Origin: an uncultured Granulicella sp.
GTDB taxonomy: Bacteria; Acidobacteriota; Terriglobia; Terriglobales; Acidobacteriaceae
Reading direction: 5' to 3'
Assembly: GCA_965214195.1 (NCBI GenBank)
Contig: OZ243943.1
Coordinates: forward strand, 1,271,776 to 1,335,775
Length of the DNA: 64,000 nucleotides
The stretch's first letter is position 1, and every line of letters begins with the position of its first letter. Below, piece after piece: positions 8,929 through 61,811 of the stretch. Made by a program: the position numbers and the translations under genes. Under the pieces are notes generated by a model, which saw nothing but the letters and a program-made list of their open reading frames with translations, made no database searches and had not been told where the DNA came from.

Positions 8929-9024
8929 GCCCCTCGCATCGTCTCGCCCTTCTCGTCAAGCTGAAAACGAAAGCCGGGTACCCCACTCATCGCGCCTTTG
9001 CAATGACCGGGATGCAAGTCTCCG

Positions 9025-10149: not shown

Positions 10150-10213
10150 AAGTCCAGACCTAACTACCCTCGATTCAAGACTTTAGCCCCCACAGGTAGG
10201 GGGGCCTACCCCA
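10150..10213. repeat. Dispersed repeat (second copy at about 60315-60372), overlapping the rlmN stop codon
   Basis: gtccagacctaac...aagactttagcc..cacaggtagggggg here versus gtccagacttaac...aatactttagcc..tacaggggagggggg at 60315. Confidence 0.6.
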
Positions 10214-11465
10214 CCAGTTGCACTAGCTCCACCGGCGCAGCCTCAGCCTCCACCGTCCGCTTCAACTGCCCGCAAGCCGCATAGATATCGCGCCCGCGGG
10301 GCCTGCGCGTAAACGCCGGGATCCCCCCTGCGATCAGCAGCTTATGGAACCGGTCCGCTGACTCCTGCGTCGGCTGCTTGAACTCAGCTCCCGGCCCCGG
10401 ATTCCAGACGATCAGATTCACCTTCGCGTTCATCCCGCGCAGCAGCTTCAGCACTTCCGCCGCGTGCTCCGGCTGGTCGTTCACCCCGCCCAGCAGCACG
10501 TACTCAAAAGTCACATATTCACGCTTCGAGAAAGGAATCGCCTTCACCGCATCCAGCAGCGTCGCAATGTCCCACTTACGCGTGATCGGCATGATCGCCT
10601 CGCGCACCACGTCGTTGGACGCATTCAGCGACAACGCCAGCTTTGGCCGCACCGGTTCCAGCGCAAACCGCCTGATCCCCGGCTCAATCCCACTGGTGGA
10701 AACCGTCATCCTGGCTGCCGGGATCCCCATCTCCCCCGTCAAAATCCTCACCGAGTCCATAAAGGCGTCGTAGTTCAAAAACGGCTCGCCCATCCCCATG
10801 AAGACCAGGTTGATGCGATCCGGATTCCCGCGCCCGGGGCCCGTCCCCAGCTCCACCCCATGCCGGTTCAGCACCGCCGCAACCTGCCCTGCAATCTCAC
10901 CTGCGGTCAAATTCCGCCGAATCCCCAGCTTCGCCGTCAGGCAAAACTGGCAATTCACCGCGCAACCCACCTGGCTCGAAACACAAATCGTAGCCCGCTG
11001 GTATCGATTGTTGTCGTCCCGCTGCTCTTTCCCAACCAGCTTCTGAGCCCGGCCGCGAACGCTGGGTGCCCCATGCATCGCAGCTTCATCGCGATGACTG
11101 GGATCACTCAATTCTTCACCACCCGCGTCCGACCCATCGCCTCGTTCGCCACCGTCTCCACCCGGCATCCAAACCGTTTCAACCGTCTCCCCATCCGCCA
11201 GCCGGACCAGATAACGCTCGGTCCCATCGACACTCTTCGCCGTCTGCGCCAGTTCCGGCAGACCAACAGCAAAACCTTCCGCGGCCAGCCGTTCCCGCAC
11301 CGCCAGCGGCAGCGCCGTGATCTCTTCGACAGCCTGCACCCGCTGCCGGTATAGTCCATCCCCAAGCTGCACCGCGCGATACGCCGGCAGCCCCAACCCC
11401 GTCACCAGCGCGCGCAGGTCCGCAACCGACATCCCAAACAGCGCCTTGGTCGTACGCAAATCCAT
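10206..11465 (-). CDS. rlmN: 23S rRNA (adenine2503-C2)-methyltransferase RlmN, with an internal low-complexity/repeat insert
   Basis: SSQVGCAVNCQFC (CxxxCxxC), FMGMGEPF, SLNA, FEYVLLGGVND, VNLIVWNP and RGRDIYAACGQL. Confidence 0.95.
   Translation of the reverse strand: MDLRTTKALFGMSVADLRALVTGLGLPAYRAVQLGDGLYRQRVQAVEEITALPLAVRERLAAEGFAVGLPELAQTAKSVDGTERYLVRLADGETVETVWMPGGDGGERGDGSDAGGEELSDPSHRDEAAMHGAPSVRGRAQKLVGKEQRDDNNRYQRATICVSSQVGCAVNCQFCLTAKLGIRRNLTAGEIAGQVAAVLNRHGVELGTGPGRGNPDRINLVFMGMGEPFLNYDAFMDSVRILTGEMGIPAARMTVSTSGIEPGIRRFALEPVRPKLALSLNASNDVVREAIMPITRKWDIATLLDAVKAIPFSKREYVTFEYVLLGGVNDQPEHAAEVLKLLRGMNAKVNLIVWNPGPGAEFKQPTQESADRFHKLLIAGGIPAFTRRPRGRDIYAACGQLKRTVEAEAAPVELVQLVG
11064..11107. 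repeat. REP-like palindromic element inside rlmN
   Basis: gggtgccccatgcatcgcagcttcatcgcgatgactgggatcac matches intergenic 53141-53184 at 36/44 nt (manual alignment); related copies at 8976-9014 and 56397-56433. Confidence 0.8.
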
Positions 11466-53116: not shown

Positions 53117-53140
53117 CTTAGCCCGACCAGCCCCGACCCT

Positions 53141-53184
53141 GGGTACCCCATTCATCGCAGTCCCACCGCAATGAGTGGGATCAC
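53141..53184. repeat. REP-like element, intergenic copy of the rlmN insert
   Basis: gggtaccccattcatcgcagtcccaccgcaatgagtgggatcac. Confidence 0.8.
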
Positions 53185-56301: not shown

Positions 56302-56451
56302 CCCAGCCCGCCTCCCGGACTTGCCTAAGCATTTTTGTTGTCGTTTCGTAGCGCAGCGAAGAAACCCTATGGTCTCAAACCCAGCCGCAACCGCAGATGC
56401 CACATCCATCGCGCCTTTTGCGATGAGCGGGACGTAAAACGTCGAGCCCTA

Positions 56452-60404: not shown

Positions 60405-61811
60405 ATGGCCCGCATTTATCCCTTCCGCGCCCTTCGTTACGACACCCAGAAAGTCCAAATGGAGGATGTTGTCACCCAGCCCTACGACAAAATCACGCCG
60501 GAAATGCAGCAGGCCTATTACGATCGCTCCAAGTACAACCTGATCCGCGTCATCCTCGGCAAAAAAGAGCCCGGCGACACGGACGCTTTTCAGCCGTCCG
60601 ATGAGCCCGCACATAACGTCTACACCCGCGCTGCCGAGTCGCTTACCAGCTGGCGAAAAAAGTCCATCCTGCGCGAGGAAGCCGAGCCCGCCCTCTACGG
60701 CTACTCGCAAACCTACCAGGTGCCCGGAACCGACCAGATCCAGGAGCGCAAGGGCTTCATCGCGCTCGGCCAGCTCTACGACTACGCAGAAAAGGTCGTC
60801 TACCGCCACGAGCAGACGTTTCCCAAGCACAAATCCGACCGGCTCGCGCTCTTCAAAGCCACCCGCGCCTACTGCGAGCAGATCTACATGCTCTACTCCG
60901 ACCCCGCCTTCACGGCTGAAAAACTGATCTTCACCGGCGCCCCAGCCGACCTCGAAATCACCGACGAATATAACGTAGTCCACCGCGTATGGCGACTGAC
61001 GGACGCGCACCTGATCAACCTCATTGTCACCGCCATGGCCGACAAAAAGCTCATCATCGCCGACGGCCACCACCGCTACGAAACCAGCGTCACCTACATG
61101 AAGGAGCGCCAGGAACAGTTGAATCCGGGTGCCCCACCTCTCGATTCTGAGAGGTGGGATGGAAGCGGCACAGACCCCAGTGAATCCCCCTCCAACCGCG
61201 CCGACGAGCCCCACGCGCTCCTCCCCAAGCCAGCCTTCCCGGAAGCCGCCATGATGATGACCTTCGTCAACATGGACGCCCCCGGAATCACCATCCTGCC
61301 CACTCACCGCGTAGTTTTCGGCCTGAAAGACTTTTCGACAGGCACCTTCCTCACCGCCGCTGAACCCTACTTCGAGATCACCCGCCAGGACTCCGCAAGC
61401 GTCCCCGCAGAAATTCAGGGAGTAGCCCTCGTCGCCGCAACCCGCGACGGCAACCACCTGCTCACCGCAAAGCCGGAAGCAATTAGCGCGCGCCTGAAAG
61501 AGCTGCACCCGGAAATCACCGCCCGCCAGGCGTCTCTCGATGTGGTCCAGCTCCACCGCATCCTGCTGGAAGACGTCCTGCAGCTATCGCACGAATCTAT
61601 CGCCAACACCGAGAACATCCGCTACATCCGCAGCGCTGAAGAAGCCGTCGCACAGGTCGCCGAAGGCAAGGCCGATGTCGCCTTCCTGATCAAGCCCGTT
61701 ACTCTCCAGCAGCTAAAAGACATCTCCCTCTCAGGCGACGTCATGCCCCAGAAGTCCACCGACTTCTACCCCAAGCTCCTCAGCGGCCTGGCCATCTACG
61801 CCCTCGACTAG
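60405..61811 (+). CDS. DUF1015 domain protein
   Basis: PFRALRY, VVTQPYDKI, YRHEQT, IIADGHHRYET and MPQKSTDFYPKLLSGL; AAGGAG RBS. Confidence 0.9.
   Translation: MARIYPFRALRYDTQKVQMEDVVTQPYDKITPEMQQAYYDRSKYNLIRVILGKKEPGDTDAFQPSDEPAHNVYTRAAESLTSWRKKSILREEAEPALYGYSQTYQVPGTDQIQERKGFIALGQLYDYAEKVVYRHEQTFPKHKSDRLALFKATRAYCEQIYMLYSDPAFTAEKLIFTGAPADLEITDEYNVVHRVWRLTDAHLINLIVTAMADKKLIIADGHHRYETSVTYMKERQEQLNPGAPPLDSERWDGSGTDPSESPSNRADEPHALLPKPAFPEAAMMMTFVNMDAPGITILPTHRVVFGLKDFSTGTFLTAAEPYFEITRQDSASVPAEIQGVALVAATRDGNHLLTAKPEAISARLKELHPEITARQASLDVVQLHRILLEDVLQLSHESIANTENIRYIRSAEEAVAQVAEGKADVAFLIKPVTLQQLKDISLSGDVMPQKSTDFYPKLLSGLAIYALD
61125..61160. repeat. REP-like hairpin inside the DUF1015 coding sequence
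   Basis: ccgggtgccccacctctcgattctgagaggtgggat; perfect 10-bp stem CCCACCTCTC/GAGAGGTGGG. Confidence 0.78.

What the first reader, a model, noticed from the sequence alone, without database searches (positions are those of the whole stretch)
11064..11107. REP-like palindrome translated in frame inside RlmN
Seen: the 44-nt segment matches an intergenic repeat at 53141-53184 at 36/44 nt, with related copies at 8976-9014 and 56397-56433. It lies in the variable loop between ETVWMP and RATICVSSQVGC and encodes part of LSDPSHRDEAAMHGAPSV without breaking the frame. Established: Rickettsia palindromic elements are known to add peptide inserts to housekeeping proteins. Inference: an analogous repeat-to-protein process operates in this lineage.
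Basis: partly seen in the sequence, partly recalled or inferred. Interest (0 to 1): 0.7.

Follow-up and report, generated by a model that had tools for sequence, protein, structure and literature searches.

The report
Mobile REP palindrome translated inside RlmN
A 45-54 base copy of a small mobile DNA palindrome (a REP element, usually found between genes) sits in frame in a floppy surface loop of the rRNA/tRNA methyltransferase RlmN of a soil acidobacterium; this kind of event is already described in other bacteria, but here the same loop has been hit repeatedly by different repeats in related species.

Summary
Window 11062-11106 (probably 11053-11106) is a strong member (46.7 bits, E 1e-11) of a 43-45 nt hairpin repeat family. 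The family has 68 copies in this 4.06 Mb Acidobacteriaceae genome, and 62 of them are intergenic.

The copy sits in rlmN (window 10206-11465, minus strand). It encodes SDPSHRDEAAMHGAPS(VRG) within a loop that AlphaFold2 models at pLDDT below 50.

- **Orthologues:** syntenic orthologues at 87% identity (P0007, P0008) lack the insert. P0004 carries a decayed copy at the same place and P0005 a marginal trace. Two 76-79% orthologues carry the same family in another register. Distant orthologues have a roughly 10-residue loop, and their genomes lack the repeat.
- **Other repeat families:** the RlmN loops of two other species in the genus carry different dispersed repeats of their own genomes.
- **Likely mobilising enzyme:** a RAYT gene (NF047646, 83 bits) is flanked by sister REPs with the same GGGTGCCCCA head.
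- **Other in-frame hosts:** about 40 superfamily copies appear to be in frame in genes, including UvrC, GyrA, RecG and DUF1015.

Verdict: this is a REP-type mobile palindrome tolerated as a passenger peptide in a permissive loop. It is a new member of a known kind (Rickettsia RPEs; intragenic REPs, PMC3733652). Interest is moderate to low.

The parts
11062..11106 (+). Core of the REP copy: head GGGTGCCCCA followed by a CATCGC/GCGATG hairpin. It lies antisense to rlmN and encodes SDPSHRDEAAMHGAPS on the minus strand.
   Evidence: nhmmer 46.7 bits, E 1e-11; 41/45 identical to the family consensus; hairpin -8.7 kcal/mol with a 2x2 internal mismatch.
11053..11106 (+). Probable full inserted element of 54 nt (18 codons), including the 5' extension CCGCGAACGCT (family consensus CCACAAAcgCT).
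   Evidence: Position-wise conservation of the flanks of 64 copies. Removing 54 nt leaves a loop of the same size as the empty alleles P0007 and P0008. Boundaries are uncertain by a few nt.
10206..11465 (-). rlmN, the dual-specificity radical-SAM RNA methyltransferase: 419 aa, intact, single copy.
   Evidence: TIGR00048 318.9 bits, above its cut-off; Pfam Radical_SAM and RlmN_N; one match in the genome; QueG-BrkB-RlmN-CofD synteny with orthologues.
11001..11162 (-). Hypervariable loop (residues 102-155) between the N-terminal domain strand ETVWMP and RATICVSSQVGC. It contains the REP peptide.
   Evidence: No counterpart in solved RlmN structures: the alignment breaks between residues 100 and 156. 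AF2 pLDDT is below 50 for residues 117-155. Loop length is 16-98 aa in 79 Acidobacteriaceae species.
8974..9015 (+). Intergenic family copy between convergent genes, 10 nt from a gene end.
   Evidence: nhmmer 38.8 bits; position relative to predicted genes.
53139..53183 (+). Intergenic family copy between divergent genes.
   Evidence: nhmmer 45.2 bits.
56398..56435 (+). Intergenic family copy between convergent genes, 17 nt from a gene end.
   Evidence: nhmmer 34.0 bits.
61127..61158 (+). Sister-family REP with the same head and a CCTCTCG stem, in frame inside a DUF1015 gene (PGAPPLDSERWD).
   Evidence: Superfamily scan; ORF 60405-61811; the Pfam DUF1015 match is split into two stretches at residue 239.

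Best explanation
A REP-type element, a short imperfect palindrome normally found between genes, inserted into the DNA that encodes a long, acidic, disordered surface loop of RlmN. The loop joins the N-terminal RNA-binding domain to the radical-SAM core. Elements of this type are probably mobilised as single-stranded hairpin DNA by a RAYT (HUH/Y1) transposase. The insert is about 54 nt, a multiple of three, and has no stop codon in the frame used, so the gene stayed intact. The roughly 18 extra residues are carried as a passenger peptide. Selection acts as a filter: only in-frame, stop-free insertions into tolerant loops survive.

Shown here: family membership of the copy; its absence from close orthologues; the mostly intergenic distribution of the family; a RAYT gene flanked by sister REPs; a clean insertion of the same family in another protein; and low model confidence for the loop.

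Inferred: mobilisation of this particular family by that RAYT, translation of the peptide, and neutrality of the insert.

The loop is a recurrent sink. The own copy is probably a separate, younger event than the decayed copies in P0004 and P0005.
For: 1. **Family membership.** The copy scores 46.7 bits, E 1e-11, among 68 copies, against zero matches in shuffles and in the reversed-pattern control.
2. **Distribution typical of REPs.** 62 of 68 copies are intergenic although about 87% of the genome is predicted coding. Many lie 6-25 nt past a stop codon. Between unidirectional genes, 23 copies share the upstream gene's orientation and 5 oppose it.
3. **Presence and absence among syntenic orthologues.** P0007 and P0008 (87% identity) lack the insert. 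P0004 (13.4 bits, E 8e-4) carries a decayed copy at the same place and P0005 (6.7 bits, E 0.096) a marginal trace. P0009 and P0013 (37.4 and 35.2 bits) carry the short-loop variant in another register.
4. **Distant orthologues.** They have a loop of about 10 aa, and their genomes hold no copy.
5. **Other repeats in the same loop.** RlmN loops of two other species of the genus contain other dispersed repeats of their own genomes (22 and 46 genomic matches). Loop length is 16-98 aa in 79 species, many with repeat-like peptides.
6. **RAYT.** NF047646 scores 83 bits against a cut-off of 80. The gene is flanked on both sides by REP doublets with the same GGGTGCCCCA head. The head occurs 154 times exactly against about 23 expected.
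7. **A second clean insertion.** The same family adds about 20 aa to an unrelated 493-aa protein, and the insert is absent from 7 genus relatives.
8. **Permissive site.** AF2 pLDDT is below 50 for residues 117-155, while the model is confident over most of the rest of the protein (further low stretches at 175-179 and the C-terminal tail 392-419).
Against: - No RAYT lies next to a copy of this particular CATCGC-stem family. The only REP-flanked RAYT carries sister stems.
- The REPs lack the GTAG or CGTC tag of the described REP super-families.
- No same-species genome is available, so no exact empty site with sharp boundaries could be shown.
- The RlmN tree backbone is weak (bootstrap 50-80). 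A single old insertion followed by decay or loss cannot be excluded against recurrent insertion.
- The hairpin of this copy is weakened and does not differ from shuffles on its own.
Confidence: 0.85

Rival explanations
1. One ancient insertion in the ancestor of the roughly 87-89% identity clade was inherited vertically. It was then deleted in some lineages (P0007, P0008, P0006) and decayed in others (P0004, P0005, perhaps P0002), while the own copy was kept close to consensus by constraint or gene conversion.
For: The copies in own and P0004, and the marginal trace in P0005, lie at the same place in the loop and in the same orientation. The tree backbone is too weak to exclude this.
Against: The own copy is 41/45 to consensus (46.7 bits) while P0004 and P0005 score 13.4 and 6.7 bits. 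The nearest relative, P0003 (bootstrap 80), lacks it and has another repeat there. The loop demonstrably captures repeats repeatedly.
Confidence: 0.3
2. The insert has been co-opted. Either the hairpin in rlmN mRNA acts as a pause, processing or regulatory site, or the peptide contributes to RlmN function or partner binding.
For: The copy is unusually well preserved compared with the copies in orthologues. Intergenic REPs sit in a fixed orientation just after stop codons, suggesting activity at the RNA level.
Against: In rlmN the element is antisense to the orientation usual after genes. Its stem carries a 2x2 mismatch and folds no better than shuffles. Close orthologues do without it. The loop is hypervariable in length and sequence and is modelled with very low confidence.
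Confidence: 0.08
3. The resemblance is due to chance or composition, or the insert is an assembly artefact or marks a pseudogene.
For: None found. The genome is GC-rich, which raises the background of short GC-rich palindromes.
Against: E 1e-11 with 0 matches in shuffled and reversed controls. The genome is a single closed contig at 99.99% completeness. Independent metagenome assemblies show the same family in RlmN. The ORF is intact, the catalytic Cys motif is conserved and the protein passes the RlmN equivalog cut-off.
Confidence: 0.02

Closest known systems
Intragenic REPs (repetitive extragenic palindromes) and their RAYT/TnpA-REP transposases, as surveyed by Di Nocera, De Gregorio and Rocco 2013 (PMC3733652) and classified by Quentin et al. 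2018 (PMC6006769)
   Same: A short imperfect palindrome of 30-45 nt with tens to hundreds of dispersed copies, mostly just downstream of genes and between convergent or unidirectional genes. The genome has a RAYT gene flanked by REP doublets. A minority of copies lie in frame in genes, notably DNA repair and replication genes (here UvrC, RecG, GyrA, and RecQ by eye), adding short peptides.
   Different: The conserved end is GGGTGCCCCA, with no GTAG or CGTC tag. The lineage is Acidobacteriaceae. The CATCGC-stem family has no adjacent RAYT in this genome. The share of copies inside genes appears high (about 40 of 184 strict superfamily elements, a rough upper bound). One loop, in RlmN, is hit by several families in many species.
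Rickettsia palindromic elements (RPE; cited as refs 13, 14 in PMC3733652)
   Same: A palindromic repeat inserted in frame in housekeeping genes, translated as an extra peptide, with the host protein presumed still functional.
   Different: RPE-1 elements are longer (about 100-150 bp, my own knowledge), belong to an obligate intracellular alphaproteobacterium, and show no sequence relation to this element. The element here is REP-sized and RAYT-associated.
Bacterial MITEs found in frame in genes (for example Nezha of cyanobacteria, listed in PMC3733652)
   Same: Small non-autonomous repeats that can sit inside ORFs without breaking them.
   Different: MITEs are 70-300 bp with terminal inverted repeats and target-site duplications. 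This element is a single 43-54 nt hairpin with no visible duplication at its ends.

Membership tests
REP / REPtron (RAYT-associated repetitive extragenic palindromes) | Short (about 20-45 nt) imperfect palindrome able to form a hairpin | tested here: met
   The consensus folds into a 12-13 bp stem at -10.9 to -11.7 kcal/mol (z -2.3 and -4.8). The RlmN copy folds at -8.7 kcal/mol with an internal mismatch.
REP / REPtron (RAYT-associated repetitive extragenic palindromes) | Many dispersed copies, predominantly extragenic and near 3' ends of genes | tested here: met
   68 copies, of which 62 are intergenic: 25 between convergent genes, 28 between unidirectional genes (23 in the gene's orientation) and 9 between divergent genes. 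Many lie 6-25 nt after a stop codon. The gene map is home-made.
REP / REPtron (RAYT-associated repetitive extragenic palindromes) | A RAYT (Y1 HUH transposase) gene flanked by the cognate REPs | tested here: inconclusive
   A RAYT at genome 1182.4-1182.9 kb (NF047646, 83 bits against a cut-off of 80) is flanked by four REP doublets with the same GGGTGCCCCA head but other stems. No Y1 gene lies next to a CATCGC-stem copy.
REP / REPtron (RAYT-associated repetitive extragenic palindromes) | Conserved GTAG or CGTC tetranucleotide at one end (super-families of PMC3733652) | tested here: not met
   The consensus CCACAAAcgCTGGGTGCCCCATTCATCGC...GCGATGAGTGGGATCAC contains neither tag on either strand.
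REP / REPtron (RAYT-associated repetitive extragenic palindromes) | Demonstrated mobility (RAYT-dependent cleavage or transposition) | not testable with these tools
   Only indirect evidence is available: presence/absence among orthologues and patchy distribution in the genus.
Rickettsia palindromic elements (RPE) | Sequence homology to RPE families and occurrence in Rickettsia | tested here: not met
   The host is an Acidobacteriaceae genome. The element is REP-sized. It resembles RPEs in outcome only.
MITE | Terminal inverted repeats of an IS plus a target-site duplication; length 70-300 bp | tested here: not met
   The element is 43-54 nt, a single hairpin, with no direct repeat at its ends.
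RlmN (host gene) | Equivalog HMM above cut-off, CxxxCxxC radical-SAM motif and the two catalytic cysteines | tested here: met
   TIGR00048 scores 318.9 against 290. C168, C172, C175, C161 and C398 are invariant in 62 homologues. The protein matches solved RlmN structures 6fz6 and 3rf9.

The most novel reading that the evidence does not exclude
The long disordered RlmN linker of Acidobacteriaceae, and similar linkers in UvrC, GyrA, RecG and other proteins, may be built largely from successive captures and decay of REP and other mini-palindromes. Mobile hairpins would then be the main source of new linker sequence in this lineage. Insertion there may be targeted, for example strand-specific and replication-linked, as suggested by the orientation bias of copies between GC-skew segments, rather than merely tolerated.
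Probability: 0.3. Interest if true: 0.55.

Novelty: new member of a known kind. Interest (0 to 1): 0.38.

Why it matters
The case gives a well-controlled example, with filled, decayed and empty alleles among syntenic orthologues, of how a mobile palindrome becomes protein sequence in a conserved RNA-modifying enzyme. It also shows that one permissive loop can act as a repeated sink for several repeat families across a bacterial family.

For annotation, it explains odd low-complexity inserts and apparent gene fusions in Acidobacteriaceae genomes. It also defines a REP superfamily (head GGGTGCCCCA) with a candidate RAYT that lies outside the GTAG and CGTC classes. It does not reveal a new principle.

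Tried and rejected
- **Rfam:** at gathering thresholds the window yields only two tRNAs, so the repeat is not a curated RNA family.
- **Target-site duplication and GTAG/CGTC tags:** looked for and not found.
- **RAYT next to the CATCGC family:** none of the four Y1 genes has such a copy within 1.5 kb.
- **Counting the repeat in the genomes of the close metagenomic orthologues (L031, L033, L035, L043):** those records are not held.
- **Tree to decide between single and multiple insertion:** the backbone is too weak to decide.
- **Hairpin stability of the RlmN copy alone:** not significant, so it is not used as evidence.
- **Long ORFs overlapping copies at genome 3131103, 1999701 and 1999906:** rejected as non-coding by codon score.
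- **Copies at 1146590, 3358196, 1403526, 2656465 and 3273646:** these lie before the likely true start codons and are not counted as intragenic.
- **Literature:** searches found no report of REPs in RlmN or of this acidobacterial family.

Full report
**Observation**

The window lies in a closed 4.06 Mb, 61% G+C genome of the family Acidobacteriaceae. The nearest named RlmN sequences come from Granulicella, Terriglobus and Edaphobacter, at 62-70% identity.

The ORF at 10206-11465 on the minus strand encodes a 419-aa protein. It reads ...ETVWMPGGDGGERGDGSDAGGEELSDPSHRDEAAMHGAPSVRGRAQKLVGKEQRDDNNRYQRATICVSSQVGC.... It is RlmN: TIGR00048 scores 318.9 bits against a cut-off of 290, and Pfam finds Radical_SAM and RlmN_N. 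It is single copy in the genome.

A pattern taken from these copies occurs three times in the window, against none in 100 shuffles.

**The repeat family**

A profile built from 13 strict copies finds 68 non-overlapping copies genome-wide at E<1e-3. The consensus is CTGGGTGCCCCATTCATCGC, then either GCnnTTT or AGCYTCAYC, then GCGATGAGTGGGATCA. It forms a 12-13 bp hairpin (z -2.3 and -4.8 for the two loop variants).

The RlmN copy spans genome 1282837-1282881, which is window 11062-11106. It ranks 11th, at 46.7 bits and E 1e-11, and is 41/45 identical to the consensus. A moderately conserved 5' extension (CCACAAAnnCT) is also present in RlmN as CCGCGAACGCT. The element is therefore probably window 11053-11106, 54 nt or 18 codons.

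I built a rough gene map from codon usage (3244 genes, 87% coding). On that map:
- 62 of 68 copies are intergenic.
- 25 lie between convergent genes.
- 28 lie between unidirectional genes, 23 of them in the orientation of the upstream gene.
- 9 lie between divergent genes.
- Many copies lie 6-25 nt after a stop codon.

Four copies are truly internal to genes:
- RlmN.
- A beta-lactamase-family domain (PF00144, E 1.7e-55).
- A CadC-like Trans_reg_C protein.
- A 493-aa protein with no Pfam match.

This is the classical REP distribution (PMC3733652). Rfam holds no family for the repeat.

**Is the RlmN copy an insertion?**

A search of the 5.8-billion protein collection gave orthologues at 86-91% identity, all from metagenomes or MAGs. 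Their DNA shows the same QueG-BrkB-RlmN-CofD neighbourhood.

The orthologues differ in the loop as follows:
- P0007 (GAEESVSPRLVRK) and P0008 (GAEDSGDDRAPRLVGK) have no insert.
- P0004 (AHRKTAAMSGAPG; 13.4 bits, E 8e-4) carries a decayed copy at the same place and in the same orientation. P0005 (THRGEVATHGARG; 6.7 bits, E 0.096) shows only a marginal trace there.
- P0009 and P0013 (76-79% identity) carry the short-loop variant in another register (DPLIAKGAMNEAR and DPLIARNAMNGAR; 37.4 and 35.2 bits).

Removing 54 nt from the own gene leaves GGEELSRAQKLVGK. That matches the size of the empty alleles.

Orthologues from the other family of the order have a loop of about 10 residues. The strict repeat pattern is absent from all 12 of their genomes. 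Within the genus it is patchy: 13 copies here, 22 in G015, 1-2 in four genomes and 0 in thirteen.

**Single or repeated events**

I built a tree from rlmN without the loop (1077 nt). It groups own with P0003 (bootstrap 80), which has a different repeat in the loop. It groups the empty alleles P0006, P0007 and P0008 together (bootstrap 94). The backbone is weak.

The own copy is near consensus, while those of P0004 and P0005 are strongly decayed. I therefore favour a separate, younger insertion in this lineage, at odds of roughly 0.55 to 0.3. This is not settled.

**The loop as a sink**

The RlmN loop of G015 contains a 48-nt element with 21 other matches in that genome. The loop of G001 contains a 45-nt element with 45 other matches. 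P0004 also has a second REP of the GGTCTC-stem type next to the first. P0013 has two copies of yet another stem type.

Across 79 Acidobacteriaceae species the loop is 16-98 residues long (median 39). Many loops carry peptides typical of such repeats, such as GAPSFP..ERVG, LRSAQDDN, ARLKSCPDT and SLRNDK.

Solved RlmN structures have no counterpart to residues 101-155. AlphaFold2 with a 62-sequence alignment gives pLDDT below 50 for residues 117-155. Most of the rest of the protein is modelled confidently (pTM 0.79), though residues 175-179 and the C-terminal tail 392-419 are also below 50. The catalytic cysteines are invariant.

**Likely mobilisation**

The genome has four Y1_Tnp matches. One lies at genome ~1182.4-1182.9 kb on the minus strand. 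It has the motifs HVH and YMHQNP and passes the NCBIfam equivalog cut-off for REP-associated tyrosine transposase (83 bits against 80).

That gene is flanked by three REP doublets on one side and one on the other. These doublets share the head GGGTGCCCCA with the RlmN element but have other stems (CCTCTCG and GGTCTCG). The head occurs 154 times exactly, against about 23 expected.

No RAYT adjoins a CATCGC-stem copy. Mobilisation of this family by that enzyme is therefore an inference. No GTAG or CGTC tag and no target duplication are present.

Copy orientation differs between the two GC-skew segments: 17 plus and 3 minus in one, 20 plus and 28 minus in the other (Fisher p 0.0012). The RlmN copy follows the majority of its segment. 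This would fit strand-specific, replication-linked insertion. The skew profile is asymmetric, however, so I treat this only as a hint.

**Generality in this genome**

A strict scan (head with at most one mismatch, plus a stem of at least 9 bp) finds 184 superfamily elements. About 40 fall in frame inside predicted genes. This is an upper bound because the gene map is home-made.

Pfam confirms hosts with domains on both sides of the inserts: UvrC, GyrA, RecG and DUF1015. The DUF1015 gene lies in this window, at 60405-61811.

For the 493-aa protein, seven genus relatives lack the roughly 20 residues RRDEAAMNGAPGVGGG..., so this is a clean lineage-specific insertion of the same family.

**Comparison with what is known**

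In-frame palindromic inserts were first described as RPEs in Rickettsia. Intragenic in-frame REPs have since been catalogued in many bacteria, often in repair and replication genes (PMC3733652). RAYT classes have been surveyed, with only sparse mention of Acidobacteria (PMC6006769).

I found no report of this acidobacterial family or of REPs in RlmN. Earlier notes of this scan describe similar cases in other Acidobacteria. They agree with this reading, but I do not use them as evidence.

**Verdict**

The finding is a new member of a known kind.

The recurrent use of one RlmN loop by several repeat families across a bacterial family, and the high share of genic copies, are the only less ordinary aspects.

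Translation of the peptide, neutrality of the insert and the identity of the mobilising enzyme remain untested.

Noticed in passing
window 60405-61811 (REP at 61127-61158): A DUF1015 gene carries a sister-family REP (GGGTGCCCCACCTCTCGATTCTGAGAGGTGGG) in frame, encoding PGAPPLDSERWD. The Pfam match is split into two stretches at that point. The stem type is the same as the REPs flanking the RAYT gene.
   Followed up: partly
genome C1:1181860-1183010 (outside the window): A REPtron: a RAYT gene (NF047646, 83 bits) flanked by four inverted REP doublets of two stem types that share the head GGGTGCCCCA.
   Followed up: yes
genome C1:20482-25920 (-), outside the window: One 1812-codon open frame joins four parts: a sodium:solute-symporter-like part, a beta-lactamase-family domain (with a CATCGC-family REP inside), seven tandem 25-aa units (PANIVILSEGPRSPTARTAVEGPAF) of another repeat family, and a DUF1343-like part (symporter-like and DUF1343-like assigned by eye). 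Either it is a real multidomain fusion with repeat-built linkers, or adjacent genes are bridged by stop-free repeats.
   Followed up: no
genome C1: 337497-339581, 2183722-2186799, 3841203-3843572 and others (outside the window): UvrC, GyrA and RecG (confirmed by Pfam) each carry one to three REP-superfamily inserts in frame. By eye the same holds for RecQ, PurL, an aldehyde dehydrogenase, a GMC oxidoreductase, a TolC-like protein, a penicillin acylase and a UvrD/AddA-like helicase. Typical peptides are GAPGLASETWD, RVPQVSTLRPG and GAPSFP..ERVG.
   Followed up: partly
genome C1:3151432-3152904 (+), outside the window: A conserved 493-aa protein with no Pfam domain carries a clean insert of about 20 aa from the same REP family (HPTRRDEAAMNGAPG). 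The insert is in the same orientation and frame as in RlmN and is absent from seven genus relatives.
   Followed up: yes
whole genome: The cumulative GC skew has its extremes at 0.79 and 2.27 Mb, giving very unequal segments (1.5 and 2.6 Mb). REP orientation is biased between them: 17 plus and 3 minus against 20 plus and 28 minus.
   Followed up: partly
L034 (P0004), L044 (P0013), L004 (G015), L013 (G001): RlmN loops of relatives hold tandem or multiple inserts of different repeat families. P0013 carries at least four, including two copies encoding RGEHPTLSDKARKDGAP.
   Followed up: partly
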